Below, piece after piece: positions 90 to 31,716 of a stretch of 64,000 nt of DNA. The notes beneath the pieces are model-generated. The model ran no database searches and was not told where the DNA came from. It worked only from the letters and a program-made list of their open reading frames with translations. Location of the stretch: NCBI GenBank assembly GCA_013239625.1, contig MU053557.1:7063-71062 (forward strand). The letters are read 5' to 3'. Each line of letters opens with the position of its first letter. Within the stretch, counting starts at the first letter, position 1. The position numbers were made by a program, and so were the translations under genes. This DNA is from Lama guanicoe (taxonomy: Eukaryota).

Positions 90-1014
90 CTGTGACCATC
101 CAGGACGCCCCTTCCTCCCTCTCCTTCCCCTGCCGCCTGTCCTCGTGGATTCACGCATTAATAAAGGATTGTGTACGTGACCCGGCCCTCCGTCTGACTG
201 ACTCGTTTCTGTGCGTCCCCGGGCCACCCCCCCACAGCCCTCGGCTCTTCCCCCTCGCAATGTCCACTGTTGCGTTTTCGAATCCAAGGCCACCTCGAAA
301 CGTCCGTAAAAAAAATGGCACTGGACACGATACCTGGCCGAGGCCATGTTCACTTTTATTAGGTAGACTCCATGATGTTCGACCTGCACATGCACCTCAT
401 GTAAGTGCCATACAAACAATACACTGCAACGACACACGTGGGCACTCATCACGGGCTCTCAGATGGGATGAATGCTGTACCTCTTCAGACGTACATCACT
501 CTGTGTCACAGAAACAACCACAAAACAAATCCACGAAACTGCAGCAACCCAACCATCACAGATACTCAGCCATCACCTACATCAGAAAGGAAAACTTCTT
601 CATTCGTCGCACTGTTACTACCTTTCGGTCTGCACATCTAGGCCCTAGCAGACAGCACTTTGCTGGCTCTTTCCAGCCCAAGTCACTTCAAAGGACACTT
701 TTCAAGTCCATTCCGATGGCTGCACAAGTCCGTACACGTTCAGGGCTGAGGACCATTCCACACTACACAGACACCACGGCATCTTGATCCAGTCTACATA
801 CGATACCTTTGGATGTATGTTTCTATCAGTAATTCCTGCCACGTCACACTCCATGTCCGAGGGCGGCTCTCTTCCCCCACCAGCATCGTGTCCAGGAGAA
901 GTGACTTTACTGACCTTCCTCACACATTGGATCATCATCTATTCTGCAAAAGAATTGGAAGCAGCCGACATGGGTGATGTTGGGGACATGTTACACAGAC
1001 TAAGAGGGTCACCT

Positions 1015-1205
1015 CACCAATACTAGCACCTACCATGCAAGCTCCATTATTACACACGGTACCTACAAGGAGAACACTACTTTCACTACTTTGCACAAGT
1101 AAACACACTTACTGACAAAGGTGGACCTGCCCACAGGGACACAGTAGTTCACAACGCTGGGAATCAAACCCAGCTCTCCCTGACACCAAAATCAGGGTTC
1201 TACAC
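1015..1205 (-). mobile_element. MIR SINE fragment, highly diverged
   Basis: Matches the MIR core by eye: ggacctgcccacagggacacag...gggaatcaaacccagctctccctgacaccaaa. Ends are approximate. Confidence 0.55.
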
Positions 1206-1418
1206 CAGGACGCTCCCTCCCGTACTACAGGGCCAAGGCAGAACTAAGAGTCCACGGGACATCTAGGACTTCCCCTCCAATAATAACTCACTGCCTCCTA
1301 CTTGGCAAGCGGACGTTTGACACCTCAGGGATACACAGCAACGACGTGGCAGAGTCCCCAGGCCCACTTCTGCACATGATCTGCAAAAGAAACTTTCTGC
1401 CCTCACGAGGGTTACCTC

Positions 1419-1543
1419 GTTACCTCGAAAGTGAGCAGCACTCTGTATGTTCGACAACATTGTGAAATAACAGCAGGTCCCATGGATAAAGCAGTTACCT
1501 CGAAAGTGAGCAGCACTCTGTATGTTCGACAACATTGTGAAAT
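1419..1543. repeat. Two identical 50-bp direct repeats (1419-1468 and 1494-1543) with a 25-bp spacer
   Basis: gttacctcgaaagtgagcagcactctgtatgttcgacaacattgtgaaat occurs twice. Confidence 0.95.
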
Positions 1544-2394
1544 GCTGTCCAAACTAGGACCTATCTCATAGTCTACAATTAAACCACTACCTCAGTTTCT
1601 AAATTCCTACTATAACGTTTGCAAAAACATCACACCACCACACAACCACTGTGTCTAGACTCACATGCACATTACAGTACTGGAAGGAAGAAAACCCTCA
1701 TCACTCACCTGAACTTAAAGCCATACACTCCCATCCCTGCCCTCAGTGAAAAGCCAACACTGGATTCTTTGACTCTTAACTAACCAAAGACAGCAGTAAA
1801 CTTGTCCCTAGAAGAACAAGGAAGGAGTAAGAAAGTCATAACCTTTAGCTACAACTAAGCTACAACTTCACACTGTCTCCCCTTGTCTTCGAGGAACATG
1901 TGCACTGACAGCAGTGACATGAACATTTTCACACGGCAAAGCTTTCCATCAGGTGACACAAAACAGCCCCATGATACTACGGCTCAAACTGCATACCACT
2001 AGACTGATTTTTACCTCAACCACCCAAGCCCCAGGGCTACGGAATTTAATCTATGATCTCAAGGAATCCTTTCCACCACTCCATGTCACAAATGAGAATA
2101 TGGCTGTCAAGCCCAGTGTTGACCCAAACTCCCAGCACCATAATCTACGTGGGAATTCCATACTGCCTGACACCGTGGTCCGTGTTCCTGACACTCGTGG
2201 CTTCGCCGCCGAGAGGCACACCTGCAGGGCAATATCCACTCATCTTGATACAATTCTTCAAACACTGCACAAGGATCAAGAAGATACTCAGGAGGTCAAG
2301 ATACACATCATCAACAACGACTGGTCCTCCCCTCTTCTGACTATCCCTGCTATCCCAATTCAGGACAAATTGCCTATCACTAAAAGATACAAAC

Positions 2395-4860
2395 CACAGA
2401 AATAGAAAAGATCAGGGAGGAAATAAATAAACTAAACTATACAATCCAAAAACCCCAAAACACCGAGACCTGGTATCTTGAAAGAATAAACAACATCAAC
2501 AAACCTCTGGCCAGGCTCAGCAAGGAGACAAGACTCAACACAAACAGACAAAGGAAGAAAGGAAAATGTACAAATGACAACCAACACCACATAAATGCAA
2601 AATGTCATAAGACAATACAAGGAACAACCCTCTAGAAACAAACTGCACAAACTAAAAGGAACGGACAAGTTTTCTGGAAATGTACAGTCCATCAAGACTG
2701 AGTCACAAAGAAACAGGCCACGAGAACAAACCAGTCACTAGAAAGCAAATACAACTTTAGCACAAAAAAAAACCTCCTGGCAAACAAAAGTCCACGACCG
2801 CGTGGCTGCACTGGTGAATTCTACCAGACATACAAAGCAGCAGGCACACTGGCCCTCACCAAAATCTTCAAACAGGAGGGACTACTCCAAAACACATTCT
2901 AGGAGTCCACCGTCTCCCTGACACAATAACCCGACACACACACCACCAAAGAAGACACGCACAGACCAGGATCACTGATGAATATACATGCAACAAGTCT
3001 CAACAAAATATTCACAAATAGAATTCAACAGCACATAAAACACATCAGACACCACGACTGACTGGCGTTCATCCCACAGACACGAGAACGCTTCAGCAAA
3101 AACACATCACAACGTGATACACCACCTCCGCAAAAGAAAGGAAAATAACCACACAATCGTCTCCACAGGTGCAGGAACACCGTTGGATACAACTCCACAC
3201 CCATGTACAACAAAACTGCTCAGCAAAATAGGTATAGAGGGAACATATGTCCACAGAATACAACTTATTTCTGACAAACCCACAGCCAGCACAGAACTCG
3301 ACGGTAAAAAAGCAAAAGCCTCCTCAGTAGACTGAAGAACAAGACAAGCACGCCCACTCCCGGCACCTCGATGGAACACGCTTGGAAGTCCCAGCCACAG
3401 CCATCAGGCAACAGAGACAGACAAACAAGGGATCCGAACAGGACGACAAAAGGTGACACTGTCACTACGTGCCAATGACCTGACGCTATCTATACAGGCA
3501 AAACCCTCAAAGCTCCACACAAACACTACTAGACCTCAGAAAAGAATGCGGCAAGGGAGCAGGATACAAGATGGACATACAAAACTGAGCTAGACGCCTT
3601 GACACTAACAATGAATTAGCAGGAAAAGGAAACTAAAGAAATCATCCCTTTTAAATTCGTATCTAAAACAGTAAAATACTCAAAAATAAATCTCACCAAC
3701 AAACGGAAAGACTTGCACACGGAGAACAACGAAACACTGCTGAAGGAAACTGAACAATGACATAAACAAATGCACAGATATCCCATGATCCGGGATGGGG
3801 AGAATCCACATCGTTCCAATAGCCATACTGCCCAAGGCACTCTGCACATGGAATGCATTCCCTATCACATTGCCCAAGGACGTTTTTTTACACAACTACA
3901 ACAATCCTAGACTGCACATGGAATCACCAAAGGCCCAGAGGTACCAAAGCAATACACAAGCAACAACTAATTCTCCCAGACCGCACACAACGTGACACAG
4001 CAACAGTCATCAACACAGCATGCTACTGGCATCGAACCAGCCAGATGGATCCATGGAACAGGATAGGGAACCCAGAAATAAACTCACAAACTGAATGGTC
4101 AATGAATCTTCCCCAAAGCAGGCGAGACTAAACCCTGGAGAAAAGGCAGTCACCTGTAGCACGTGGTATTGAGAAAACTGGATGCCAGCACCCCAATCAA
4201 AGAACTTACAACACTACGTCACACTGTACACGACAATAAACTCAACATGGCTTACAGACTCAAATACTGGACAAGACACAATAAGTCTCCTAGAAGAAAA
4301 CACAGGCAAAACTTTCTCGGACATATGTCTCAGCAATATTCTCCTGAGGCACCCTATGAAAGCAATAAAAATGAAAGCAAAAATAAACAAATGGGACTGA
4401 ATGAAACGCACAAGCTTTTGCACAGCAAAGGAAATCATGAGCAAAACAAACCAAAAACCCATGGAATGGGAAGAAAAACCTCTACAACACGAGACTGACA
4501 AGGCCTTCGTTGCCCAACTATATAACCCTCTCATACAACTCTGTAAGGAAAAAACAAACAACCGGATCCAAAAATGAGCAACAGACCTAAACGATCAATT
4601 TTCCAAGGAAGACATACAAATAGGCCAACAGGCACATGAAAAAAGGCTCAATACTGCTTATGGTCAAAAAAATGGAAATCAAAAACCTACGAGGAGCTAG
4701 CACCTCACACCAGTCAGAAGGGCCACCGCGAAAAAGCCCACGGGAAACGCACGCCACAGAGGCTGTGGAGACAGGGGAGCCCTCCCACGCTGCTGGCAGG
4801 AATGCAGCACGCTGCAGCCACTCTGGGAACCAGGACGGAGACCCCTCAAAAAACGACAAG
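2395..4860 (+). mobile_element. LINE-1 ORF2 fragment (RT and C-terminal region), heavily degenerate, no 3' UTR
   Basis: Collinear with the L1 at about 19840-22300. ORF fragments include KIGIEGTY, GRIHIVPIAILPKAL, ACYWHRTSQMDPWNRI and KMKAKINKWD. Confidence 0.93.
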
Positions 4861-6016
4861 TACTTCAATATTACAGAGATGATAACGGGAAAATATTACA
4901 ACTACCCTCCCCCCCCCTTTTTTTTTAACAAAAACTAACCTCACATGATGCCCAAAGTCACAATTATCACAGAAACTGATTTCATACTATTCACAACACT
5001 CTTGCATTATCCATATACCACACCTTCTCCAGATACAGACTTTACAAAGCTTACTATATTTTAAAAATACATGTGACCTGCTCAAAAATTCAGCCCTTTA
5101 CAGACTTAAGATCTGTTGCTCAATGATACAATTTAACACCAGTCAAAACACAAGGAAACGACACCGTGCCATTATCATGCACACGTACTCTGACTTCAGG
5201 GGGCCCACAGACACATTCTCAACACAATTCCAGAAGTAACTGTGATAAGCAACAACCTATCATGTACGTTCACTTTGGCTACACTGAACAATAAAAACCA
5301 AGCAAGCTGTGGTTTCTTTCCCATAGTCCAAACAAGTGTAAATTACAACAGTTCAATGTCTAACCTTCACTAGAAGACTAATTTCTATTGCTTCTACTGC
5401 TGCATCTGCTAATGAAACTTGAAAAGCAAATGATGACAGGATTCTGACTTCAAAAAGTTTTGGGGATATCCCTCGCAAGGTACACATTTCAAGGGCACAG
5501 GCAACACTTTGGTAGAGAACACATCAAGGGTAAGTGGCGTGGACACTGGCCATCTGAAAGCTCTGAATCTGATATGCAACGACAATCAAATAACAGTACT
5601 TTTCCTAAAACAACTTGTAGAATATTTACACATACAACACTTTATGCCCACACACTTATCTTAAAAGCTCTCTCCAAGTTTGTGTCTTCACAAAACTATT
5701 ACAAAACCTGTCACTTTAACTGAACCAAGTCCCTTCCTTAAAAGCACATGAACAGGAGTGCCCAGCCGTTACAGACTGTTGTAAAATGCAGTTCGGATGT
5801 GGGCAGTCACTTCGATACGCGGGAGACAAACGTGGCCAAGGACCGGTGCACATTTGACACTTCCTGTCAAAGAATAGCCCCACAGTCGAAGAAAAATGCA
5901 GCTGCTGAAAACAAAGCCCTCCATTTCAAACACCAAAGTGTTTTTTACATGGGCTACTTTCAACCAACATCATCACTTCACACAATCTTCGTGAATTCAA
6001 CACAGTAACAAAAACA

Positions 6017-6500
6017 CAGGCAGGCCTCGTGTGACTGCGCTCCGCTTCACCGTGTTCTTCTGCAGATACTGTGGTTCTCATATATGGAACACTGCAGGCA
6101 AGCCTGTGTCAGCAAGTCTTTCGATGCCACTGTTCCAACAGCAGTTGCTCACCTTACTTCGCTCGGTCACATTTCACTAACTCCGGGAATACTTCAAACC
6201 TAACCTCTACTACCTGTATGATGGTAGCCTCAGATCAGTGATTTCTGATGTTACCACTGTCACTCGAGGAAGGCTGAGATGACGGTAAGCATTTTCTAGC
6301 TCTAAGGTATTACACAGTAACAGTATATATATACTTTTTAACACATAACACTATCACATATTGAACAGACTACCATATACTGTAAATAGAACTTTTACCT
6401 GCACTGTGAAACCAAAAAGGCTGTGTGACTCACATGACTGAAGTATTTGCTTGACCGGGGCAGTCTACAACCTAACTGCAGTATCTCTCCTGTGGGCCTG
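6017..6500 (+). mobile_element. Tigger1-derived internally deleted DNA transposon (Tigger1a-like, TcMar)
   Basis: The 5' end caggcaggcctcg and the 3' end gtgggcctg|ta match the Tigger1 termini. Internal matches include agcaagtctttcgatgcca, gaaggctgagatgac and gaaaccaaaaagg. Confidence 0.85.
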
Positions 6501-9029
6501 TACAGCTACAGAGAACAGAAAGGCTTTCAAGGGGGTGCGGAGGGAAGAGAAGGAACTGGGAAAACGACAACTTTTACAAAACGTTCATCCATACTTTAAA
6601 ACACAGCACAAAACATCTACTGTTATCCAAAACACGAATCACAAAATGATTATTTCAGGTAGAGCTTTCAGTGCTGATCCATGACTCCCTCAGATGAAGA
6701 CAGGAAGCAGACAAGTTTTTAGGACAGGAAAACAAGACATCACAAAGTGAATTCCTATCTAGGAGGTAGACACTCCACGCACGACGGGAGTTCAACCACG
6801 CTTAGATAACACAGTTGGGATACCCTGAGGGTTCCTGTTGCTTGTTTACTTCTCCATCCCTTTCATCAGGACTACAGACTAGATCATCACACCCAAACCA
6901 TAAAAAGGAAGAGTACTAAGAGCAAGAGGAAAAGACGAATCTTTCAAAATGACACTGGACATGGTGAGCCAACATTGGTCCAGCACTAGGAGGAAACTTA
7001 CTTCCTAACCAAACAAAGCTGCGAAAAGAGTGTAAATACTATCTAAGAACATTCCTGTTTGAATTTTTCCTTTTCTTCTCACTGCCCAGAAAGACTAACA
7101 TACAGGAAAAAAAAAAAGTGACTTCTCAAATATAGCACAAACCCTAAGCCTGAAAAGAATGAGGACCGGTGACAAAGGACATGGACACAATAGGGAACGG
7201 AAGGGCTCACCCTTGGTGGCTGCTGCACTGGGTAAAGTGACCGGACGACTCCACTTGCGGGCAACACGCTCTGGTTTGGAACAGAAAGCAAACTGCTTTT
7301 CTCCCCGCAAGCACAAATACACATCACATGCGGTGGAACGTTACCTGTTCCCGTGCTCAGGCCGGTCTACGAGTGGGCGTGCCTTACTTAGCACCCACCT
7401 GGGAAACGACAACAGAGTACACCACGATCCGTGCACGGAAGAACTTGTGACTCTGCCCATAAAAGGCCCAAACGGCTTTTCCCTAGTTCACGTCTTCATA
7501 TGCAATCCGTCATCGACTCCAAGATGACTGCTTTACATACACTGACAAATACACAACTAGATAGAATGAAACAGTGATTTGCCAAAGAAAGCTACATGGC
7601 AAGATACTTTTCCAATTATAAAAGTAGTAAGGATTTCGTTTAAACATTAGGGAAACATCCAAAAGTTTAAAAGTAGAAAAAAAGACAAACTTTCTGTCAG
7701 AGACAACCCAGCAAACACCTCTCTGTAAATCCTTAATCTGAGGAAAAAAAAAGAAAGCTATACACATAGCTTTCCGGGGTAACACTAGGGATGGCGGCTA
7801 CATCTCCAGCTCTTTACATGGGAGGCACTGATCGTTGGTTGCTCATGACTTCACAACATGTTGAAAAAACACTCTGAATGTCAACAGATCATCTTTTACA
7901 ACATGATACTTTGATGGTCCCCAAGTATTTGCTTTTCACTTAACCATTCTGTCACTGCTGGTCACTCATTGTTTTCGTTTTCTCACTGCTGTAAATACCA
8001 CCGCAGAAACCTTTACACAAATCTTGGACTGTATTTGTACTTCAAGTAAATTCCAAAAACGGCAAGGAAAGCCAACGGACAACGTCAGGGGCGCCTCCCA
8101 CGTGCGATGAAACTGCTGACCCGCCCTCATTCTGGCACGTCGGGCACAGGCACGGCCCTGCGTCCACTCCTCACGGGGAGCAAACCCGCCGAGCTGCCAA
8201 CGGACGACCCCAGCCTGCTTCTCCACAAGGGTGTCTTCTCTTGCTTTCCAAGCATGTTTTTGATAGTAAGCATTTCAACCCTCCGTCCACCGAGGACACG
8301 TCTACAAAGCCCTATCTTACATCACTTTAAAAATATTTCACGTCAAATGACAAAAGTCCGTCACCTGCAGAGCCAGCGCTGTTGCTCGCGTGATACTTCT
8401 CTTGGCCGTGATACTCTCTGAAGTACTATGTCCGCTTAACAGCAACTGACCGACCCAATACAGTTTTGGATCAAGATGTGACTTCTAACACAAGCTTTTA
8501 TTTCAGGGCTCTCTGCAGCCCAATAAAATGACAGGAATGATGTTTGTTTTAAAATGCATAACCCCCTAAGAATAAAGACAACGAGGGAAGCGGTATTTTG
8601 TCACTTATCCCACAACAACGCCGGGCAGCGGGGTGGGGACAGAAGAGACACCACAAGCGGCGTTTACCACGGGACCGGGCGTTCCGGGGCCGGCTGCAGG
8701 ACCAGCGGGGAAAGCTACAAACCGACCCGATGGACTCCACAGAACTTGCAAGAGTCTCAGACACTGGGGAAAGAGGTAAGGGTCCAAATCAGGACAATGG
8801 GCCCAAAGGCTGTGGAATACCACTTCAGGAAGACGGCAGGCCAGGTTATGGCGGCCAGTCTGCCCATCAGAGACAAAATGCTAGGTCAAAAACATTTACG
8901 GAAAACCTGGTTCAGAGCACCCGTCAGCTAACACGGCAACACAGGGCTGAGGCTGAAGTCTAAGGCTCAGCTCACTGGGCACCTGTGCTCTGCGAATATT
9001 TACAAATGTAGACAAACATGCGTTTCAAA

Positions 9030-9870
9030 CGAAAGGGCAGAAAACCCTCCAGAAAAACGGACAAAAACTCACAGGTACTTTATAAAACAGGAACTCCAAA
9101 TGGCCAATAAACACATAAAAAGTTTTAACAGCCTCACCGATCATCCAGGAAATGTAAATTGACACCACCAATAAACACCATGACAGACCCACCAGGCTGG
9201 CAAAAATTAAAACACTTGACAAAAAGGACAGACTATAAATAGTACATCACTTTTAAAGACTCTTCGGCATTACGCAGTAAAGATTTAGACGAGAATATCC
9301 TAAGATCCAGAAACTCCGCCACTTGCCCTGTATCAAGAAGTTAATCTGCGCACCCAGTAACACGTGGACCAACGCTGACAGCTCCATGTCCTGTGTTACA
9401 CCAGAACCGGACACAACTCCACTGTTCATAGTACTCATGGAATGGAAATAGATACACATGGCTGTAATTCTACACAAGGAACTGTAGTTATACATACTAC
9501 CACGGGGGGACTGTACAGTGTGAAAGCCAGCAGACACAACATAGCCCGTGTGGTATCAATCTATTCGTTACAGCGCAAAAACATGCAAACTCAGCTACAC
9601 CGCTTGAGGGTAGTCAGGGAGGAAGAAAAGCTCAAAGGTAACTACCGTGAAGTTTTAGGTGAGAGCTTCCCTCTAGGGAAGGGGAGCAAAATGGCACTGG
9701 AATCTCGCAAGGTCACAAGAAGATTTCCAACGTGTTGGCAGTATTCCTTTTCTTTCCCTGCTCAGTACTCACCTGAGAGCAAACTTCATAATTATTTATG
9801 ACTGTGGATATACACATGTCTTGTTTGTTCTTCTGTATGCTTCCTTTCACAGTAAACTTTTTCAAAAATT
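9030..9870 (+). mobile_element. Ancient L1M (L1MC/ME-like) ORF2 end and 3' UTR fragment
   Basis: Contains caaatggccaataaacacataaaaag, ggaaatgtaaatt and ggctggcaaaaattaaaa. Ends are approximate. Confidence 0.7.
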
Positions 9871-10379
9871 CTAACTACAATAAACGGACAGGAAAAGACA
9901 CAGGTCACCGAAGCCCTGTGCCATCTCTCCTACTTCAGTAGCAGACGATCTCTTCCCTCCTGATGTCCACCTTGCCTGCTCCTCTCCATTTCTCCCCTAC
10001 TTTCTGTCCCTCGGTCTTTTTGCTCTTCTTTCTACGCTAATCTCCCCATCTTCCATTGAGCTTTTCATTTACACTTTCACCTTTATAACTTCCAACACTC
10101 AGGTTTTACGTGCTCAATCGTCCCTCTTTTTAAAAACTCCTTATGCTTCAGTTATGAATGCACTATCTTCCCTCTCTCTCAGCGTATACAGAATAGGTTA
10201 CAGGGAAGCCCCTGCTCTCGGCATAGCTCCCGTCTCCTCTGAGGTGGACTCCTCTGTCGTCTTGATTTCTACTTTTGAGACTAGAAGCTATGATCCTTCC
10301 TTTCGCCCTGTCCATCCCCTCCTTCTGGACAGAAGACCAAAGTCCTTTCTTGGTAAACAGCAAAATAAAAGGGCTCTGG

Positions 10380-11020
10380 GATGAAGGATTCCCGACAGAG
10401 TTGAGCGCCGAGGTACTTGACAGAAAACAGGAGGATTAAGTGAACTGTTGCATACCCGATATCCGTGGAATTCATACGCTCTGAAGGACAGAGAGGAAAG
10501 AAACTGGTGAAAATTCAACGGCACCTCAGAGACCTGACACACAAGGTCACGTGGCCTAACGTACGTATAAGAGAAGTCCCGAAAAGAGACGACGCTGAAA
10601 GACGTCAGACAGAAATTCAAAGAAATACTTACCAGAAATCAGAATACATTACAGACATTGAGCAGGGTCAACAGGCACACTGTATAAACATTAAACCTCA
10701 GCCAAGATATTACAACGATTAAAAATGAAATGTACTCTAATTCTTTAATTAGAGCAGAACTAACACATCTACACACAAAATAAGAGCATAAATGGGGAAA
10801 ACAGGCAGAGCTCTAAAGGAACACTAGCAAACACGGAGGAAAGACACAAACGAGTATCTAACTAAACGGAAGGATAGAAAACATCAGTCACGTCTGCTCT
10901 CGCCACATTGATTTATAAACTCGATGCAAGACCAGTAATGATCCCAGCAGGCTTTCTGGACGTGTAGACATGCACAAGCGCATTCTCAACTATACGTGGA
11001 AATACAGAGACTGGGAAGAA
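10380..11020 (+). mobile_element. Ancient L1 ORF1-like fragment followed by an ORF2 fragment
   Basis: ORF 10465-10722 (IRSEGQRGKKLVKIQRHLRDLTHKVTWPNVRIREVP) resembles the L1 ORF1p motif LRDLWDNIKRPNIRIIGVP. Confidence 0.65.
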
Positions 11021-12409
11021 ACCCTGACCACGGTCCTGCCTTCTGGGGGAGTGTCAAATGCCTTCAAAGGGATCATTCATTTACCAAACAGCTTTCAGTA
11101 GCACCCACTAAATAACCATAATGAAGGCAGCGCATCTGTTCAAACTGAAACCGTTTTTCACTCTGCGGGCATACACAAAACTCTGCTTTCAGATGTTTTA
11201 TAAGCCTGTGTGGTTTCAAAATAATAAACCAGACTACTTGATTTAGTCAAAAGCATGAAAGAGATTAAACAAGTCACTGCTGCAAAAAAAGAATCGGCAA
11301 CCGGGTCATGGAATGTGAAAGGCAAACAAACCAACTCGAAGGAAAGTCCCTTTTGCCAAAGGATCGGATGAATACGTTCGCTCGGAATGACACTTGCTCT
11401 GTAACTCATGAGGTTCTCGTTTCAGTCCTTTAAAAAATTCACGTAAGGGATCCGGTGTTTGCCGCTCTGACGTAAAACGTCTCGATGTAAGCTCATGGAA
11501 TGTCTCGCTGTAACGTGCTGGTTGCTCTGCTGTTCCACTTCAGCAAAGTCATCAGAACAAGAGCGAGTTTGAGCAGAAGAGTGAAAACCACAAGTACATC
11601 CCTCAGCAACCAGAATGCCAACGAAAAGCGCCCGAAGAACAAAGAACCACATCCACCGTGGTCTTCTCAGGGATATTCGTATACACTGCTCACGGCTCTC
11701 CTGAGGAACAAGCCTTTCCGGTGTAAGAAGACAAGGCTTCCAACTGCCAAAACCCTTTTCACAGGACCTATGCTTCACATCCGTTCGTATTCATTTACTT
11801 ATTTTGAATTACAACTAGAAAGTTAAAACTGAAATGACATTAAATACTTAAAACGAATCTGTTCTTAAATACTGTTACATATTTACTCTTCTTTCATTAT
11901 TAACGGACAATCTCTTTGGGAAAGAAAAGATGGACTGCAAATAAATGGTGACTGACTGTAGGATGATTGAATTGCTAACACATAATACATGCAAATGCCC
12001 TCAAATTTCCATGATGACTTGACCTGAAATGTTCCTACTATGCTACGTTCGGGCTTGACGCGAACAGACTTTTGTGGCAAAGAAAACACAGAGAAGGAAG
12101 AGAGGAGAAATGAACGTCTTTCATCCCATCACGCCCTGGCTCACGGCCATCTGATGCTTCTCCGGGATGACATCACTCTTGGGACATAAGCTCTTCCACG
12201 GACGCCGTGTTCAAAATGACAAGCTGGTCTCTCTGACCTTCAACGGTAATCCAGTACAGCCACGGTCCAACAGTATGAATAGCCAAGTGGGGCCATGCAG
12301 GGGTTTCACAGGAAAAAAAACGCTCTGAAAAATTGTATGTTTCAACAGAATCTCTTTCCTTTCAGTTACCTCATGGAATCTGTTAAATAACTGACTGATT
12401 TAATCTACA

Positions 12410-12640
12410 ATTTATTGTCACTCATGTTCATTTAATACATGTTAGGCACTGTGCCACATGCAGTATAGGAATCATCTCTGTTATTTTCACGTCGGTGACG
12501 TCTATCACGATGGGTTCTACTACTACCTTCACTTTAAGAATGAGAAATAAGAACGGAGAATCAGGTCAAAGGGTCCGCCGTCCAAGGCCACCAAGGCGGC
12601 AGCTCTGTGAGAACCAGAATGCAGATTCTAAGACTGCCAG
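12410..12640 (-). mobile_element. MIR SINE
   Basis: atgttaggcactgtgc...cactttaagaatgagaaa...gtccaaggccacc matches the MIR layout. Confidence 0.6.
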
Positions 12641-13684
12641 CTGAGGACTATCTCTCCCAAGTTCTGCGGCTCCTCTCCATTTTGAGCACTTTCTCAGTAA
12701 CATTTCCTAGGGATACACATTGGAACAATCGACCGTAAGACATTAGAAAAGTTACCAAAAGGCACTAAGAGAAAATGGTAGCAAAACCAAGAGGAAGAGA
12801 TGCCCCCAACTGTTCTGGGACAGAATCAGAAACTCCTGAGCAATGGAGTCAGGACGATCAAGTTCCTAACCAGGAGTCAGGAGACAGAAAACGGGCTGTG
12901 TATGTAGCATGACAATGTCTTTTCATGAAGCTTCCACAGCCCCCTGTAGGGGACATACAAGGAAACGGGCAATTGTCATACACTGTGATTCTTGCTGCCG
13001 CAGAAGAATACGCACGGACATTTAGGTAGAGAGAGGTGTCAGCGACGTGCTCCTGGAAACAGTGGCATTGATGCCAACAGCTGCAAAGCTAAGGGGGGGA
13101 GGGAGGGAGGTCAGGACAAAGAAGATAACATGTGCAGAGGTCTCTTGATATACAGAGTAGGGCCTTTTTGGGGAAACTCAAAGTAAAGACAACAGAACAG
13201 TATCAAGATAACTACTAGAGAACAGCAGAAAACACTGCCTAGGCAGGGTCCAAAGAGATCTGGAAGTCAGGGGTGAAACCTCTTCAAGTGCTCATGCAAG
13301 ATGCCACCTAGGGAAAGGCGGGAAGACTGAAACCTTCCTGACGCAACGGGCACGGTGTATTTCCACCTTTACTATGGCACAGCATTCTGATGCAGAGGAC
13401 ACCCCCCTGAACAGGGCAACCAGAGAAATTCCAATTCCTACCACTAGCTCACGGGGCCACCATCTTTGGCATAGAACTCACTGAGCTTCCCTGGCACTTC
13501 AGGCTCCTTCTGGGACTCACAAATCAAGCCACTTCATCTTGCAGGGGGCAGGAGCTGGATCTCCCACTTGTCTCAGGATTCTTTTGGTTCTCATACGGTG
13601 ATCCTCCAGTGCAATGATGGCAAACAGCCAGAGATGGCAACAACAGAAACCCTATCTCGGTGAGAACCAGCAGCCATGGCTGTG

Positions 13685-13990
13685 CCTTGAGGACCAAGCA
13701 CTGTGTATCACCTCCACGTTGCTTATTCCGTCTTCCCCACAACCGTATGAGGTAGGTCCCGCTGTTATCCCCAAAGAAAACGCATACTCAGAGAACTCCC
13801 CTGCCCAAGGTCACGGACCTAGCCATCGGTGGGAACTCGACTTTCTCATCTCGACATGCATGATTTCTCAGCCCCATGTTACGGAAAAAGAAATGTAGGC
13901 TCAGAAAGACACTGTTCCCAGAGAAAGTGACACAACTAGAAAACGGTGGTATCTGGATCCCAAATGAGGTACACCGATCCAGATGCCAAG
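13685..13990 (-). mobile_element. Two adjacent MIR fragments
   Basis: cacaaccgtatgaggtagg...cctgcccaaggtcac, and ccccatgttacggaaaaagaaatgtaggctcaga. Confidence 0.6.
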
Positions 13991-16307
13991 CTCTTCGCCG
14001 CGGTACTGAACGTACACCATTACACCTCTACTAAGTGGCAGATTACTGCGAGGGATACGCTGCAGGCTGTCAGAATCCTAAATTTATGTGCTAAAACTCA
14101 ATGACTGAAAAGTTAGCAATAACTGGCAAGTGATGACGCCAAGATCCAGTGGGTTAAATGAGACACCAGCTGTGGGCAACCGAGAGGCCGCGTTGCGGTC
14201 CACCACTCCCTGTTTCTCCCTGTTTCTCCCTGCTTCTCCGTTTCCTCATGACAAGAATAGAATTCCAGGGCATCTGACATTCAGAATGGCAAAGCCTCCT
14301 CATTCGTTCCCACCTAGGTCCCACTGACCTCACATCTTTGATCGCTACAGAGGGGTCCCCCAAAGGAAAGAAGAAAGAGGACACATGAGGGAAATAGGTC
14401 TTGACCCAGCCACTTAATACAGTCAGCATGATTTCACTCTGACTTCAGTTTCTGATTTTCCCATGTATCATGCCATCAGTATTTTTAGATAATTGGGCAA
14501 GAGGCCTAGGGCCTTGAACAATATATAAAAAACTGGGTTTCTGTGCTTTTGTAATAAAATTATAAACCTAGAACATTAAAACTTTCCAAATTTGGACACT
14601 CAAGAATACAATGAAAAGAGTGCCACCCAGACAATTTTCAGATCCCCAGGAGTGGCTGACATGAAACATTCTTACCACAGGTTCCTAACATTAACCACAA
14701 ACACTGGAATGACTAAAAACTACACTATTTAACTACACTTTAAAAACTAACAATGGAGAAAGTAGTTTTTGACTTCAGAGAGACAAGAATTACGAGAATC
14801 AGAAAATCAACATTATTTTATATTTGAAGACTGCTTGGCAGAAGCATAGTAAACGTGAACAAGGTGCCTGAAAACTGCTTCTTCACGTTACCAAAGTAGC
14901 AGTAAGACGGTGACCTCACACTGGGCTGTTTCCTGTGTTTCATGATTTACAACATGAGCTTCAATAAGTTGCTCTATGAAGGACGTCCCTTTTCAGAGAA
15001 GCGCTTCTCTGTGAGAAGTCTCCCTCACCCCCTTCTCTCTTCCTGATACTTAAACGGAATGGTATATAAAACATACATTTGATACACAAAGGGCCAAACA
15101 TCCACATACCCATAAAGACACAATTCCTGGGCGATTATCTCAAATTGCAATGGATTCCCATTCTCCTTCATCAAAGTAGGAAGGACACAGACCAAACTAT
15201 CCTCCTCTATGACAACAGGAAATACGTGTAACATCGGTACACAAACCGATGGCAAAAAAAGAAACTGGAACAACTGCTGGCATTTCCCCCTTACTGACAT
15301 CAAAATCCATAGAGAAAAAAAAAATTTCTACACGTAAAAACTGTTATCTTAAGCTAGTGTCATGACTGCTAGGCCCCAACTCTTTATTACTTTTATAGGG
15401 TTATTGCATTATTACAGCACTAAGGGCCTTCTTCACTTATAAATCCCTCTTAAATTACATGACATTATCTGTTATAGGCATTAGAGGGCATGGACACTGC
15501 TTTTTTGGAATCCTACTTTACTACACATAGAACTGCAGGTTGCCAAGACCTTAACCAGGTATGAACTTTCGCTACCCAAGAATTGCAGCCTAAAAAAGCC
15601 ACCTCCTCCTACTACTCACAAATGTGCAATCACATTCCCACTGTAAAAACTTAGACCAAACTAGACACGGAGGAGTATCCGTGGGTGAAACGGCACTGAT
15701 GCTTTTGGGCAGGTAAGAGTTCTATCAAATATAGGTTCCAAAAAATCTTCTTTTATGCAGCCCCTCAAAAACTCATAGCTTTGTCTTGTGGAAGATAAAA
15801 TCCAGACTTCTTCAGGCAGCAAATACAGCTGCAACGGTCTGTACCCAGTCCGCCTGCTTCGGCCGTATTCTTGCTCCCTTTTAAGTACACGCTCCATGAC
15901 CAGCTTTCACTCTCTGTCCCCCTACCAACTTATCTCACTTCCTGTCCATTTGTACCTTCTTGGTCAGAGGCCTAGACCCTCAAAATATAGGTACCCTTAT
16001 AAGAGTTACCCTGCGCACGACTCTTGGTGACTCATTTCAGATCTCAGGGCTACCATGAAGGTTTGAAAATGTTTCCATCCAAGAGTCATCGTGGTACATG
16101 ACCTGCTGATTTTGCCTCACGGCATCCGCTCCCCTTTCTCGTAGCATGCTTGGGATCTTCAAAGCTTAAGATCTCAAATGTGACTTTCGATACGACGACT
16201 AAAATGGCCCATGGAAACTGAAACATTAAGTGACTAAAAATCACAGCAGGTCATAACAGATGTAATACTACTTTAAAAAACAGATTCAATGATTGGGTAA
16301 ACTGGTA

Positions 16308-17389: not shown

Positions 17390-20300
17390 TCCTCCCTTCT
17401 TATAAAATTCTCTTTCTTATTAAGTTTTCTTCCTGCATAGGCGTTAGATAGATAAATAAATAAACTCCATAAGGACCACAATAGATAACTGATACTCCAT
17501 AAGCCACAGTGCCAGACAGACAGGAGCGAGATGAAGAAGCAGAGGAACCACTCCCAATTCAAAGAGCAAGAGAAATCCCCTGACAGTACGATCAAGGAAA
17601 AAAACATCAATGGCCTACTAGATCAAGATTTCAAAAAAGGAGTGATCAAAGTACTGAACAAACTAAAAAAGATACTGTTGTGAAATATAAAATATTTCAA
17701 AAATAATATGGAAGCTATAAAGAATAGCCAATAGAATTGGTAAGCTCACTGGCTGAGATGACAGCTGATCTAAAGGCTGCACAAAGCAGGCTAGATAATG
17801 CAGAGGAACGAATAAGTGACCGAGAACACAGGACAACAGAAAGCAACCAATCAGAACAGCTGAGAGGAAAACAAGTAAAAAACAATGAAAACAACATAAG
17901 GAACCTATAGGATAATATAAAGCATGCCCATCTACACATAATGGGGGTCCCAGAAGGGGAAGAAAGAACCAAGGGGACTGAAAAGGTACTGGAAGACATG
18001 ATGCCTGAAAACTTCCAAACCTAAAGAAGGAATCAGATAACCGACTACCAGAGGCTCAGAGGGTCCCAAACTGGAAGAACCCAATAGACTCACACCAACA
18101 CATGTCATAATCAAGATGGCCAGGGTCAAGGATAAAGAAAGGATCCTAAAGGCACCAAGAGAAAACCAAAGAGTGAGTTACAAGGGAACCCCCATGACGC
18201 TCTCAGCTGATTTCTCTACACAAACACGACAGGCCGGAAGGGAGTGGCAAGATAAATTCAAAGTCCTGAAACAAAAAAAGATGCAGCCTAGGATACTTTA
18301 TCCAGCAAGGCTATCCTTTAGAAAAGGAGAGAGAAAGAATTTCACAGACAAGCAAAAACTAGAGTTAGCAACACTAAACCCATGCTAAAAGAAATACTGA
18401 CAGGTCTACTCCAAATAGAAAAGAAGCAGGATGCTACAAAAATGAGAAACTCGTAATTGGAAAGGTAAAACCTACCATGAATTACAAATAGAATACACAT
18501 GAAATTGCAAAAGAAGACATCTAAATCATTAAGAGTGGGAGAGGGAAACAAGCAAATATAGAGTATTTTTCTTCTTTCTTTTTTAAATGTTTCCTTCTTC
18601 GTAGGATGGGTTTGAGCTTATATTACTATCTGTTTAATACAAACAGTTATAGTAATGGTCTAATAGACTTACAAAAAAGGGCAACAGCAAGCCAAAATCT
18701 TACAAGGGAGTCACAAAAACTAAATAAAATCCAAGATAATACAAATGAAAATTATCACACCACAAAAAGAAGAAAGGAACAAAGAGGAAATACCAAATCC
18801 ACTGCAAAAATAAGTTCAAAAACGGCAATAAACACACATCGATCATTAATTACTGTAAATGTTAATGGACTAAATGCTCCAATCGAAAGACGTACAGTGG
18901 CAGACTGGATAATAAAGCAAGAACCTTCAAGATTCTACATACAAGACACCCACTTTAGGGAGAAGGACACATATAGATGGACAGTGAAAGGATGGAAAAG
19001 GATATTCCATACAAATGGAAGAGCCAAAAAAGCAGGGTTACCATCAGTAGTGATTTCAGACAAAACAGACTTTAAAACAAAGCCCATAAAGGAAGATAAA
19101 GAAGGACATCTAATAATAATTAAAGGAGTAATACAAGATGAGGATATTACACTCCTTAATATATATGCCCCCAATATAGGAACACCTAAGGACATAAAGC
19201 AATAACTAACAGAGATAAAGGGGGATATGGATGGGAATACAATCTCTTTCGGACACTGCAACACTGCATTAACATCACTAGACTGATCTCCCAGAAAGAA
19301 AACAAGTAAGGCAACAGAGAAATTAAATGATACAATAGACAAGTTAGATATGGTGGATATTTTCAGAGCATCACACACCCCCAAAACAAGATATACATTC
19401 TTTTCAAGTGTACATGGAACATTTTCCAGGATTGATTATGTACTTGGGCACAAAAGAAGCCTCAACAATTTTAAGGAGATAGAAATTATCTACAGCATCT
19501 TTACTGACGACAATTCCATGAAACTAGAAATCAACTACAGAGAAACAAAGGAGAAAAAAAGGAAAGCATGGAGATTAAACAACATGCTGCTAAAAAACCA
19601 ATACATCAATGATGCAATCCAAGTGGAAATCAAAAAATACCTTGAGACAAATGAGAATGAAAACACAACCATACAAAATTTATGGAACGCAGCACAGGCA
19701 TTGCTAGGAGGAAAGTTTATAGTGATACAGGCCTTCCTCAAAAAAGAAAAACAATCTCAAATAAACAATCTAACCCACGAGCTAAAAGAATTACAAAAAA
19801 AAGAGCAAAAAACCCCAAAGGGCAGCAGAAGGAAGTAAATAATAAAGATCAGACAGGAAATAAATAAAATAGAGACTAAAACCACCATAGAAACAATCAA
19901 TCAAACCAAAACCTAGTTTTTTGAAAGAATAAATAAAACTGACAAACTTCCAGCCAAACTCACCAAGAAGAAAAAAGAGAGAGCACAAATAAGCAAAATA
20001 AGAAAGGAAAATGGAGAAATTACAACCAATAACAGAAATACAGAATATCAGGCGAGAATATTATGAAAGACTATATACAACCAAAATGGGTAACCTAGAG
20101 GAAATGGACAACTTTCTGTAAGCATACAGTCGACCAGGAATAAATCAAGAAGAAACTGACCACTTGAACAAACTGATCACTAGAAATGAAATCGAATCAG
20201 CAATAAAAAAAAAACCCTCCCTATAAATAAAAATCCAAGATCAGATGGCTTCACCGGGGAATTCCACCAAACATACAAAGAAGAACTCATACCAGTCATT

Positions 20301-22975
20301 CTCAAACTCCTCCAGAAGATTGAAAAGGAGCGAATACTCCCAAACTCATTCTATGAAGCCACCATCACCCTGATACCAAAATCAGGCAAAGACACAACCA
20401 AAAAAGAGAATTACAGACCAATATCACTGATGAACACAGATGCAAAAATCCTTACCAAAACATTCACAAACAGAATCCAACAGCACATAAAAAAGATTAT
20501 ACATCATGACCAAGTAAGGTTCATCTCAGTGACACAAAGCTGCTTCAACATATGCAACTCAATCAATCTAATACATCACATCAACAAGAAAAAGGACAAA
20601 AACCACATGATCATCTCAATCGATGCAAAAAAAAGCATCTGATAAAATTCAACACCCATTTATGATAAAAACTCTCACCGAACTGGGTATAGACGGAATG
20701 TATCTCAACGTCACAAAAGCTATTTATGACAAACCTACAGCCAGCATAGTACTCAACGGTGAAAAACTCAAAAGCATCCCACTAAAATCTGGAGCAAGAC
20801 AATGCTGCCCACTCTCACCACTCCTATTCAACATTGTCTTGGAAGTCCTAGCCACAGCAATCAGGCAAGAGACAGACATAAAAGGGATCCAAATGGGAAA
20901 ACAAGAGGTAGAAGTGTCACTAGACACCAACAACATGTTACTGTATATAGAAAACCCTAAAAGGTCCACACACAAACTACTAGAGCTGATCGAAGAATTC
21001 AGCAAGGTAGCAGGTTACAAGATGAACGTTCAAAAATCTGTGGCATTTCTTTACACTAACGATGAATCAACAGAAAGTAAACAAACAGTCCTCTTTACAA
21101 TAGCACCCAAAGTAATAAAATACCCAGGGATAAATCTAACCAAGGAGGTGAAAGACTTATACATGGAAAACTATAAACCACTGATGAAGGAAATTAAAGA
21201 CTTAAAAAAATGGAAACATATTCCATGCTCCTGGATTGGAAGAATCAATACTGTTAAAATGGTCACACTGCCCAAGGCAATCACAGATTGAATGCAATCC
21301 TTATCAAATTACCCAAAACATATTTCACACACCTAGAACAAAACATAATAAAATTTATATGGAACCACCGAAGACCTAGAATTGCCAAAGCATTACGGAA
21401 GAAAAAGAAAGAGGCTGGACAAGTAACTCTACCAGACTTCAGACAATACTATAGAGCTACAGTCATCAAGACAGCATGGTATTGGTACAAAAACAGACCT
21501 ACAGACCAATGGAACAGAAAACAGAGCCCAGAAATGAACCCACAACCTTTTGGTCAACTCATCTTCGACAAAGGAGGCAAGAAAACACAATGGAATAAAG
21601 ACAGCCTCTTCAGCAAATGGTGTTGGGAAAACTGGACAGCACCATGTAAAGCAATGAAGCTAGAACACTCCCTTACACCACACACAAAAATCAACTCAAC
21701 ATGGATCAAACACTTACACATACCACAAGATACAATAAATCTAGAAGAAAACGTAGGCAAAACATTATCTCATGTACATCTCAAAAATGTTCTCCTAAGG
21801 CAGCCTGCCCAAGCAATAGAAATAAAAGCAAGAATAAGCAAATGGGGCCTACTGAAACTTACAACCTTCTGCACAGCAAAGAAAACCATAAGTAAGACAA
21901 AACGACAACTGACGGAATGGGAGGAAATCTTTGCAAACGATGAAACCAACAAAGGCTTGATCTCCAGGATATATAAGCAGCTCATATGACATGAGAAGAA
22001 GAAAACAAACAACCCAATCCAAAAATGAGCACAAAACCTAAACAAGCAATTCTCCAAGGAAGACATACACATGATCAATAGGCATGTGAAAAAATGCTCT
22101 ACATCGCTAATTACCAGAGAAATGCAAATCACAACTACAATGAGGGATCACCTCACACCAGCCAGAATGGCCGTCACTCAAAAGTCCACAAATGACAAAT
22201 GCTAGAGAGGCTGTGGCCAAAACGGAACCCTCCTACGCTGCTGGTGGGAATACAGGTTGGTGCGGCCACTGTGGAAAACAGTGTGGAGATCCCTCAAAAC
22301 ACTAGGAATAGACTTTCATATGACCCAGTCATCCCACTTCTGAGCATATATCCAGAAGGGACCCTACTTCAAAATGGTCCCTGCGTCCCAATGTGCATAG
22401 CATCACTATTTACAGTAGCCAAGACATGGAAACAGACTGAATGTCCATCGACAGATGGCTGGATAAAGAAGAGAAGGTCTATTTATACAATGGAATACTA
22501 TTCACCCATAAAAACGACAACATAACGCGATTTGCGGCAACATGGATATCCCTGGAGAATGTCATTCTAAGTGAAGTAAGCCAGAAAGAGAAAGAAAAAT
22601 ACCATATGAGATCGCTCCTATATGGAATCTTAATTTAAAAAAAAAGGAACATAAATACAAAAAAGAAACAGACTCATAGACATACAAGACAAACTTGTAG
22701 TTGCCCAGGGGGCAGGGGGTAGGAAGGGACAGACAGAGATTTCAAAATTTGTAGATACTCACAGGCATATGCAGAAACAAGATTATATGGTATAGCACAG
22801 GGAAATACATACAAAATCTTGTGGTAGCTCACAGGGAAAAAAAAGTGACAATGAACGTACGTATGTTCATGTATAACTGAAAAATTGTGCTCTACACTGG
22901 AATCTGACACAATGTTGTAAATTCACTATGAATCAATAAAAAAGTTAACATAAATCAATACAAAAATTTTTAATA
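17390..22975 (+). mobile_element. Near-full-length inactive LINE-1: partial 5' UTR, ORF1 (about 17531-18420), inter-ORF spacer, ORF2 (about 18822-22633), 3' UTR and decayed A-tail
   Basis: ORF1 motifs: MARVKDKERILKA and RILYPARLSF. EN domain: ITVNVNGLNAPIER, NIYAPN, FSRIDYVLGHK. RT domain: [18 protein letters not shown]. There are many stops and frameshifts, and YADD reads DTNN. The 5' boundary is approximate and no TSD was found. Confidence 0.96.
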
Positions 22976-23834
22976 TAAATACAGAAAGAGAATAGGTCTT
23001 ACTATATTTGTAAATATTTTCCCACAAATGCTCCTTGGATTACTGGCAGAGAAAAACATCCAAACAATTATTTTTCTCTCCAAGCATGACATCCTAGTGA
23101 AATTTTATACAAATTCCTAGTTATGACTGAGTAACGTGTGGTAACACTGAAGTGACGGAACGGTGGGGGTAGAAGCCTTTTACACTCAGAAGAACCTTTC
23201 TCTTCTTGGCCCTCCAAAGTCCCTGAGAAAGGGTCGCAGAGACTCAGAGTTGCTCGTACTGCCTTTGGTGGTGGTGGCGGCTATGCAATGGTCACACACT
23301 CCTCCTTAGCAGCATCGCTTTATGAAAACGTTTCCCGTCGACAACATTTTCCTTACGACACTGTCTGACGACGGCTACTCCTTTACTGTGCGCTCTGAGA
23401 ACTGAAAAGCCAGGGAGGGCGATCAGACATGATCCTCCGCTCTGCCCTGGCTGCTGCTTCACCACACCTCCGTTCTCCCTGAACGTGTGAGCTCTGCACG
23501 GGGAGGCGGCTCATCTTCCCAGCCCCGAACCCCTCCTGCTGTCACTTATCATCGTAGAGGACTCTATTCCTTCTTCGAAGTCTACTTGGGAGACTGGCTC
23601 TCTTTCTCTCCAACCCGTCACCTATGGGGACCCACTGTTTGAGGATTCGGCTCTCACTTACAGTAGCTCTAGAACACAGGACTTCCTGAACCAAACTCAA
23701 CTCCCCCTCCACCTTAACCGGCTCCTTCCTTCAGCTTTCAGAGTCTCTTTCCTTGCCTTTCAGCTTCCTCCCGCATCCTGCTCACTTTTTCATTGCTTCA
23801 TATTTATGTCTGCATAAATATTTTGAATATGTAT

Positions 23835-31400: not shown

Positions 31401-31604
31401 CTTACAGCTGAACTAACAAAGAGGAATTCAGGCAGATACTATGAACTACAAACAGGGGAATGCGATGGATTTTTTCTCTCACCTTTCAGACTAGTACCTT
31501 CAAAACAGCATTTTAAACACAATGAAAAAGAAAACCCTGTGGTAATGAATTAGTTGTCCTCACTGAAAAATACATACCTTCATAATTATAATTGCTGCTC
31601 TTTG

Positions 31605-31607
<3 letters not shown>

Positions 31608-31636
<29 letters not shown>
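31608..31636. repeat. (TG)n microsatellite forming the tail of the adjacent SINE
   Basis: Read directly. Confidence 0.95.
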
Positions 31637-31638
<2 letters not shown>

Positions 31639-31716
31639 AACGGAGGTACTGCGCACCGAACCCAGGACCTGGTGCATGCCAAGCACGCCCTATACCACTA
31701 AGCTGTTACCCTCCCC
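31637..31716 (-). mobile_element. tRNA-derived camelid SINE (vic-1-like)
   Basis: The reverse complement reads ggggagggtaacagcttagtggtatagggcgtgcttggcatgcaccaggtcctgggttcggtgcgcagtacctcc, with A-box- and B-box-like motifs. The family call is from memory. Confidence 0.8.

What the first reader, a model, noticed from the sequence alone, without database searches (positions are those of the whole stretch)
92..31716. Strand-asymmetric drift towards C on the NR3C1 template strand
Seen, comparing sister L1 copies inside the window: catacaagac (22681) vs catagaatac (34732); atgaacgtac (22851) vs atgaatatat (34907); gacacacacacc (about 2933) vs ggcaaagacac (about 20385); ctagacctca (about 3529) vs ctagagctga (about 20980). 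Seen, against remembered consensus sequences: Tigger1 ttttattgcgcttcgctttattg reads tgtgactgcgctccgcttcaccg, and its left TA target site reads CA (6015-6016). The L1 ORF2 start reads ACG (18822). The SINE motif ggggattgaacc reads gcgcaccgaacc (31651). T>C, G>C and A>C all appear in excess on +, which is A>G, C>G and T>G on the sense strand. Established: an A>G excess on the non-transcribed strand of germline-expressed genes is known, and REV1 inserts dCMP opposite abasic sites. GC-biased gene conversion is strand-symmetric and does not favour G>C. Inference: lesions persisting on the sense strand, bypassed by dC insertion, could explain a local germline mutator signature that looks stronger than ordinary transcription asymmetry. 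This rests on examples picked by eye, not counts.
Basis: partly seen in the sequence, partly recalled or inferred. Interest (0 to 1): 0.7.

Follow-up and report, generated by a model that had tools for sequence, protein, structure and literature searches.

The report
Mirror-image mutation scar inside NR3C1
In the middle of a long intron of a mammal's glucocorticoid receptor gene, DNA has mutated about three times faster than usual, with a strand bias that reverses at one point, which looks like the long-term scar of repeated chromosome breaks at that spot rather than an effect of transcription.

Summary
The asymmetry is real, but it is not tied to NR3C1 transcription. Polarised with other repeat copies, window 1-23 kb shows G>C 44/544 vs C>G 13/644 on +; far controls show 48/1785 vs 38/1605. 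The L1 at 2.4-4.9 kb is 20% diverged vs 5-8% for six related copies. T>C excess is weaker (not significant after L1-orientation control), and A>C does not exceed T>G. The rest of NR3C1 lies on scaffold C55230, bridged by contig C5517. Still inside intron 2, beyond an assembly gap edged by (GGGGAAGA)n at window 1-89, the polarity reverses (G>C 2/152 vs C>G 18/153; left vs right p=1.5e-7). GC, CpG and weak-to-strong changes peak at that point and fade over tens of kb. A 516-bp piece from beside the centre sits as an ectopic insertion elsewhere. Best reading (0.55): a persistent germline break focus. Long resected single strands are damaged and bypassed by translesion synthesis (REV1-type C>G), and GC-biased conversion acts on top. 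It resembles human hotspot and maternal long-conversion mutagenesis, but is fixed at one site, about ten times wider, and old. Orthologues, read-level polymorphism and the gap sequence were not seen.

The parts
1..89 (+). (GGGGAAGA) x 11.1 polypurine, G-run repeat at the right edge of a 1,716-N assembly gap; marks the centre of symmetry
   Evidence: TRF; gap; largest C-G skew step of about 310 kb and minimum of the cumulative skew fall at the gap's left edge, C1176:5275-5295; five exact units were reported nowhere else in the assembly, a lower bound
90..23000 (.). Right arm of the hypermutated zone: G>N and T>N excess on +, weak-to-strong excess, raised GC and CpG
373..852 (-). Old antisense L1-like fragment, very diverged; donor of a 516-bp ectopic insertion into an L1 at C4389:1767231-1767746
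2399..4854 (+). L1 fragment, 20.1% non-CpG divergence vs 5.3-8.2% in six related copies
6017..6520 (+). Tigger-like DNA transposon (name recalled), 24.8% divergence vs 8.9-12.9% in five other copies; (G,T)>N 45/141 vs (C,A)>N 19/117
17546..22955 (+). Long L1 copy; G>C 16/289 vs C>G 2/326 polarised, 51/940 vs 11/903 against a young copy
61924..63132 (-). NR3C1 exon 2 reading frame; the window from 1 to 61.9 kb is intron 2
   Evidence: PF02155, E 1.9e-196

Best explanation
A fixed site in NR3C1 intron 2, at or inside the gap next to the (GGGGAAGA)n repeat, has broken again and again in the germline over a long time. Each break is resected 5' to 3' on both sides, sometimes for many kb, leaving the strand with the 3' end single-stranded: the top strand left of the centre, the bottom strand right of it. 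Cytosines and adenines on that exposed strand are damaged, and fill-in by translesion polymerases fixes C>G (REV1-type), C>T and A>N changes. Read on +, this gives G>N/T>N to the right and C>N/A>N to the left. Repair off the homologue adds GC-biased conversion, which favours A/T to G/C changes on both strands. Shown: the rate excess, the G/C asymmetry, its reversal inside one intron, the GC/CpG peak and the ectopic copy. Inferred: breaks, resection, the polymerases, gBGC as the cause of the W>S excess, and a causal role of the repeat.
For: Polarity flips: left G>C 2/152 vs C>G 18/153, right 44/544 vs 13/644, p=1.5e-7; far control symmetric. Both oppositely oriented halves of the left L1 agree (10/53 vs 0/50 and 5/78 vs 1/71). 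C-G skew is +0.26 just right and -0.11 to -0.20 just left of the gap; step 0.37 vs far SD 0.076 and far maximum 0.27 in absolute value; a sign-flip model lowers chi2 from 369 to 133 over 33 bins, decay length 26 +/- 11 kb. Orientation is fixed by C5517. The direction matches the single-stranded strand described by Hinch et al. (PMC7615360, section 4 and Fig. 1 legend, as I read them). Rate is up 3.1-fold in the L1 and about 2.2-fold in the Tigger. Equilibrium GC is 0.62-0.69 near the centre vs 0.35-0.43 farther out. A 516-bp copy of window 373-852 interrupts an L1 elsewhere, with no poly(A) tail or target duplication visible and a possible 4-bp microhomology; since copying, the window changed at 17 sites (14 of them G/T>N) vs 8 in the copy. 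Two versions of the left arm differ at 111 of 4,919 sites, ts/tv 59/52, 20 C/G, A/G 44 vs C/T 15 on one strand.
Against: Ordinary resection is 1-2 kb per side (PMC7615360); this footprint is about ten times wider. The direction of the >10 kb asymmetry that Hinch et al. ascribe to break-induced replication could not be seen (figures not held), and BIR would by my reasoning give the opposite polarity. The left-arm count rests mostly on one L1 (656 of 790 sites, 15 of 18 C>G events, 10 of them within 230 bp, so possibly clustered and not independent). T>C/A>G and T>G/A>C are not significant after orientation control. S>W changes are not clearly suppressed (folds 0.4-1.7) and W>S transversions rise much more than transitions (9-14x vs 3-4x), which gBGC alone does not predict. 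C>G context is not TpC-specific (TpC 32/298, ApC 15/102). The skew stays positive up to exon 2 and mostly negative down to exon 9, which also fits converging transcription. The flip model still fits poorly in absolute terms (chi2 133 on 33 bins). Ten other purine/pyrimidine tracts of 40 nt or more in the 261 kb show no comparable step, so such a tract is not sufficient. The centre itself is unsequenced.
Confidence: 0.55

Rival explanations
1. Converging germline transcription: NR3C1 sense transcripts from exon 1 and an antisense transcript from the 3' side both run towards the repeat and stall there; the non-template strand of each is exposed (R-loops) and mutates, as in oocyte transcription-associated C>G mutagenesis.
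For: Predicts the same polarity as resection (inference). Skew is step-like across the whole gene. [quoted passage not shown] An AATAAA lies at window 160.
Against: The reversed bias fades towards the 3' neighbour instead of growing (C55230 24-50 kb: G>C 11/469 vs C>G 17/455, p=0.25; skew near 0 beyond exon 9). It does not by itself explain the two-strand W>S excess, the threefold rate peak or the ectopic copy. No RNA data were seen.
Confidence: 0.17
2. Replication forks converge or stall at the G4/triplex-prone repeat; the lagging templates on both sides are exposed longer and mutate, without breaks being central.
For: A fixed terminus gives the same polarity (inference). The repeat matches a G4 pattern; purine mirror repeats form H-DNA and impede replication (PMC9171763, passages).
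Against: Replication asymmetry is usually a shallow plateau of tens of percent (recalled), not a fivefold bias with a threefold rate peak and GC gain. Fork collapse would merge this rival into the best explanation.
Confidence: 0.12
3. A past intronic inversion, or an error at the gap, put two segments of one polarity head to head.
For: The centre coincides with an unsequenced gap; an 82-bp inverted duplication flanks the nearby scaffold break.
Against: Exons 3-6 lie in the reversed zone and exon 2 in the forward zone, all in sense orientation; the window has no N; GC and CpG peak continuously at the gap and fade on both sides with no second junction seen.
Confidence: 0.06
4. One reading: lesions persist on the NR3C1 sense strand and are bypassed by dC insertion along the gene.
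For: Right-arm polarity is C>G and A>G on the sense strand; the unpolarised A/G 44 vs C/T 15 excess between the two left-arm versions is also on the sense strand. A small positive skew near exon 2 probably is transcriptional.
Against: Polarity reverses within intron 2 and the sense strand is C-rich over exons 3-6; the signal peaks mid-intron; A>C is not above T>G.
Confidence: 0.05
5. Plain gBGC hotspot plus chance or L1-specific bias.
For: Strong W>S excess on both strands; part of T>C/A>G is intrinsic to L1 orientation.
Against: G>C and C>G are neutral to gBGC yet differ 4- to 9-fold and flip; seen in L1s of both orientations, a DNA transposon, an ectopic copy (7/75 vs 1/121) and base composition.
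Confidence: 0.05

Closest known systems
Mutational footprint of human meiotic DSB hotspots (Hinch et al. 2023, PMC7615360; read: sections 4 and 8, passages, figure legends)
   Same: Strand asymmetry that is rotationally symmetric about a centre; C>N and A>N on the resected single strand; C>G ascribed to REV1-type translesion synthesis; a weaker >10 kb asymmetry in C>G and A>G.
   Different: There: rare variants averaged over 25,440 PRDM9 hotspots, mainly within 2 kb. Here: one locus, fixed differences up to 13 points above background, decay length about 26 kb, recorded in repeats of several ages.
Maternal extended non-crossovers and C>G-enriched regions (Palsson et al. 2025, PMC11922761; Goldmann et al., 10.1101/140111; passages)
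   Same: Long (7-9 kb) GC-biased conversion tracts, slightly stronger bias for transversions, C>N strand asymmetry around the event out to 100 kb, C>G excess.
   Different: Human events are spread over large regions on chromosomes 8, 9 and 16; here they appear pinned to one point. Parent of origin is unknown here.
Oocyte process 6/7 (Seplyarskiy et al. 2021, PMC9217108; passages)
   Same: Local C>G spikes in long genes with strong strand asymmetry.
   Different: Its asymmetry follows the direction of transcription, and the authors argue against a break model; here the asymmetry reverses inside one transcription unit.
Mouse pseudoautosomal region with mo-2 minisatellites (PMC13050634, passages; role of mo-2 in recruiting break machinery partly recalled)
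   Same: Repeat-associated, very fast, GC-biased evolution attributed to frequent breaks.
   Different: A subtelomeric sex-chromosome domain with large arrays; this site is interstitial (between 6.4-Mb and 36-Mb scaffolds), and no mirror asymmetry was seen in the passages read.
Ectopic insertion of hotspot fragments (Lukaszewicz et al., PMC13532658; passages)
   Same: A fragment from a break site inserted at a distant break; local inverted insertions.
   Different: Shown in mouse Atm and Mre11 mutants; here a single old natural event whose mechanism is inferred.

Membership tests
Meiotic DSB hotspot footprint | Asymmetry reverses at a centre | tested here: met
Meiotic DSB hotspot footprint | C>N and A>N on the strand left single-stranded by 5' to 3' resection | tested here: inconclusive
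   Met for C>G and, on the right arm, C>T; A>G and A>C not significant after orientation control, though the Tigger and the ectopic copy support A>G
Meiotic DSB hotspot footprint | Width of about 2 kb each side | tested here: not met
   Decay length 26 +/- 11 kb; bias still clear at 17.5-23 kb
Meiotic DSB hotspot footprint | SPO11/DMC1 signal, PRDM9 site or promoter-like default site | not testable with these tools
   No such data; the centre is in a gap. The gene's CpG island is about 64-68 kb away
Meiotic DSB hotspot footprint | AID/APOBEC-like context of C>G | tested here: inconclusive
   5' A/T 47/400 vs 5' C/G 15/297; 3' T 39/287 vs other 23/410; TpC not above ApC
GC-biased gene conversion | Weak-to-strong excess on both strands | tested here: met
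   T>C 4.2x, A>G 3.4x, T>G 14.4x, A>C 8.7x; equilibrium GC 0.62-0.69
GC-biased gene conversion | Strong-to-weak changes suppressed; GC-neutral changes unaffected and symmetric | tested here: not met
   C>T 1.0x, G>A 1.7x; G>C 8.3x, C>G 4.2x. gBGC can be only part of the process
GC-biased gene conversion | Derived W>S alleles segregate at higher frequency than S>W | not tested
   No allele-frequency data obtained
Transcription-associated asymmetry (TCR/TAM, process 6/7) | Constant polarity along the transcription unit | tested here: not met
Human maternal C>G regions / extended non-crossovers | C>G excess with strand asymmetry over tens of kb | tested here: met
Human maternal C>G regions / extended non-crossovers | Maternal origin, age dependence, clustering within one meiosis | not testable with these tools
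   Needs pedigrees
Minisatellite-nucleated break domain (mo-2 type) | Large repeat array at the centre | tested here: inconclusive
   89 bp seen; the adjoining 1,716-N gap may or may not be array

The most novel reading that the evidence does not exclude
A single interstitial purine-rich repeat has acted for tens of millions of years as a stable germline break focus that does not turn over like PRDM9 hotspots, with long-range resection. It has written a roughly 50-kb mirror-image translesion and gBGC footprint into an essential gene, raised present-day haplotype divergence above 2%, and exported a fragment to another locus. Such foci could be found genome-wide by their skew flip.
Probability: 0.3. 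Interest if true: 0.82.

Novelty: new variant of a known kind. Interest (0 to 1): 0.62.

Why it matters
Break-associated single-strand mutagenesis in the mammalian germline is known from averages over thousands of short-lived human hotspots and from diffuse maternal regions, whose cause (breaks vs transcription) is disputed. Here one locus separates the two, because the polarity flips inside a single intron. It offers a fixed address at which to test whether a DNA element can pin germline breaks over evolutionary time, which polymerases fill long resected tracts, and how gBGC and mutation combine. In practice, the zone splits NR3C1 across scaffolds and would mislead selection or divergence scans at this gene. 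No description of this locus turned up in two literature searches aimed at it (camelid/NR3C1 terms) or in five searches on the mechanism; the library lacks most subscription papers.

Tried and rejected
Comparing with one young L1 only confounds L1 lineage change with local change; replaced by column-wise polarisation and orientation-matched controls. The idea that C1176:1-5346 is mis-oriented was rejected by the bridging contig C5517. The second copy of a 126-bp tandem duplication was counted twice (left C>G 20/161) and dropped (18/153). A search with window 4900-17500 returned only copies of one 200-bp repeat at its end, so most of 4.9-17.5 kb has no polarised data except the Tigger. C55230 2.6-24 kb has none either; only composition speaks there. 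Only 7 of the 111 differences between the two left-arm versions could be polarised, and they show no trend. No read-level polymorphism was obtained. Controls were best hits, not random draws: 6 of 44 non-self rows, 5 of 39, 14 of 47; the 'far' set mixes repeat ages, so its divergence is not age-matched. A telomeric location was rejected (both flanking scaffolds are Mb-long). A divergent promoter at the centre was rejected because it predicts the opposite polarity (inference). Window 90-372 has no other copy. Exon GC3 (0.34-0.62) is uninformative without orthologous codons. Earlier scan findings: none matched. Papers seen only as search listings are not used as support; PMC11161765 and PMC6598621 were read as passages and say nothing about this locus. 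Supplements were not read; those of PMC7615360 may give the direction of the long-range asymmetry.
Full report
Setting. The window is G000:C1176:7063-71062 of a 2.05-Gb mammalian assembly; its L1 and SINE families look camelid, which is my recall and comes from no call. NR3C1 exon 2 lies at 61924-63132 on the minus strand, so the window is intron 2. It begins with (GGGGAAGA) x 11.1 at the edge of a 1,716-N gap. Exons 3-9 are at the start of another scaffold, C55230, on +; exon 5 matches human glucocorticoid receptor with E 9.8e-52 and 6 of 92 residues different. Contig C5517 overlaps both scaffold ends (positions 1-3568 reverse-match C1176:3578-1; 3744-5445 match C55230:1-1703). Gene order is therefore exon 2, window, gap, C1176:5346 to 1, C55230, exon 3.

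Observation. All quoted motifs are present. The sequence is shared by 20 of 24 listed runs at 0.78-0.95 of 31-mers. I polarised changes by column majority of other repeat copies, leaving out ancestral CpG. In window 1-23 kb (3,319 sites): G>C 44/544 vs C>G 13/644; T>C 67/634 vs A>G 89/1497; T>G 54/634 vs A>C 82/1497; G>A 49/544 vs C>T 31/644; T>A 16/634 vs A>T 17/1497; G>T 9/544 vs C>A 11/644. Beyond 64 kb (9,444 sites) every pair is symmetric. Because the window's L1s are all on +, I compared them with 30 control copies in the L1 frame. G>C/C>G survives (ratio of ratios 7.2, p=6.5e-7), as do G>A/C>T (2.1, p=0.005) and the pooled (G,T)>N vs (C,A)>N (1.64, p=5e-6); T>C/A>G and T>G/A>C do not. 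With only the six same-group copies no single class except T>A/A>T reached significance. The Tigger-like element gives an independent (G,T)>N 45/141 vs (C,A)>N 19/117, p=0.004.

Rate. The L1 at 2399-4854 differs from its group at 20.1% of sites vs 6.5% (range 5.3-8.2%) for six copies elsewhere. Folds: T>G 14.4, A>C 8.7, G>C 8.3, T>C 4.2, C>G 4.2, A>G 3.4, T>A 3.4, G>A 1.7, C>T 1.0, C>A 0.8, A>T 0.6, G>T 0.4. The Tigger is at 24.8% vs 8.9-12.9%. GC (0.49-0.52) and CpG o/e (0.5-0.7) are highest around the gap and fall on both sides. Background divergence of 5-8% implies tens of millions of years at a usual mammalian rate (rate recalled, inference).

The reversal. Left of the gap, in the same frame: G>C 2/152 vs C>G 18/153 (p=2.6e-4) and T>A 0/257 vs A>T 5/228; left vs right p=1.5e-7. 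The left L1 has an inverted 5' part, and both halves agree. Composition agrees in non-repeat DNA: C-G skew is +0.26 in the first bin right and -0.11, -0.20 in the first two bins left; ACA/TGT is 93/36 right and 34/78 left. The largest skew step in about 310 kb lies at the gap (0.37 vs far SD 0.076). The fitted decay length is 26 +/- 11 kb. Limits: the left count is mostly one L1 and partly clustered, and T>C/A>G on the left (19/257 vs 25/228) is not significant.

Other traces. Window 373-852 has an 83%-identical copy at C4389. That copy interrupts an L1, with no tail or target duplication visible and a possible 4-bp microhomology at one junction. It shares 108 differences from five relatives with the window, so the window region is the donor and much drift came first; some of the 108 may be subfamily differences. 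Afterwards the window changed at 17 sites (14 G/T>N) and the copy at 8. The two versions of the left arm differ at 111 of 4,919 sites with ts/tv near 1.1, 18% C/G, and A/G 44 vs C/T 15 on the sense strand (p=2e-4). I take C5517 to be a second haplotype, not a paralogue (inferred from its bridging position). These differences are unpolarised and fit either C>T on the predicted single strand or A>G on the sense strand.

Mechanism. Resection leaves single-stranded DNA on the forward strand left of a break and on the reverse strand right of it, and human hotspots show C>N and A>N on that strand, with REV1 proposed for C>G (PMC7615360). That is the polarity seen here. The width fits better with maternal extended non-crossovers, which are 7-9 kb long, GC-biased, and flanked by asymmetric C>N mutations within 100 kb (PMC11922761). 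I therefore favour a persistent break focus with long resection, translesion fill-in and gBGC (0.55). Whether the breaks are SPO11-made or arise from the G4/triplex-prone repeat is open. The repeat may also be a product of the instability, and other purine tracts in the 261 kb show no comparable step. Converging transcription (0.17) and fork convergence or stalling (0.12) predict the same polarity and are not excluded. One-way transcription-linked damage (0.05) and plain gBGC (0.05) are contradicted by the flip.

Comparison and novelty. It works like a DSB-hotspot or maternal conversion footprint. It fails the width test for an ordinary hotspot and the constant-polarity test for transcription-linked process 6/7 (PMC9217108), so I do not file it under either. 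I rate it a new variant of a known kind. No account of this locus was found in the searches named under 'why it matters'. Interest 0.62.

Noticed in passing
G000:C5517:1-5445 (L040, L055): Small contig that bridges the scaffold ends C1176 and C55230 and differs from them at 2.3% of sites; probably a divergent second haplotype that broke the assembly. NR3C1 is split over two scaffolds as a result.
   Followed up: yes
L002:1501-2016 (G000:C4389:1767231-1767746) and window 373-852: 516-bp copy of DNA from beside the centre inserted into an L1 elsewhere, without tail or target duplication; a time capsule of the earlier sequence.
   Followed up: yes
L008:264-344 and L029:599-680: 82-bp inverted duplication about 1 kb apart, flanking the scaffold break; could be a template-switch or fold-back product.
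   Followed up: partly
L008:5042-5340; window 1419-1543: Recent-looking local duplications near the centre: 126 bp at 96% next to the gap (may be an assembly effect) and 50 bp at 100% with 75-bp spacing. Not compared with a background rate.
   Followed up: no
window 90-372: Single-copy GC-rich stretch right after the repeat, with AATAAA at 160; looks like the end of a terminal repeat by eye, but no other copy was found.
   Followed up: partly
one search hits, e.g. L028: 25 of 39 young L1 hits have the same score and 11 more share another, suggesting collapsed or consensus-filled young L1s in this assembly.
   Followed up: no
L029:1449-2564: L1 with an inverted 5' part just before exon 3; ten G>C changes fall within about 230 bp of the inverted half, possibly one or a few clustered events.
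   Followed up: partly
L039 (G000:C55230:46000-50000): GC and CpG o/e rise again (CpG 0.48-0.58) about 20 kb past the end of NR3C1; cause not examined.
   Followed up: no
contig C1176:70001-75000 (window 63-68 kb): NR3C1 promoter CpG island (GC 0.58-0.63, CpG o/e 0.9); C-G skew falls to about zero upstream of it.
   Followed up: partly
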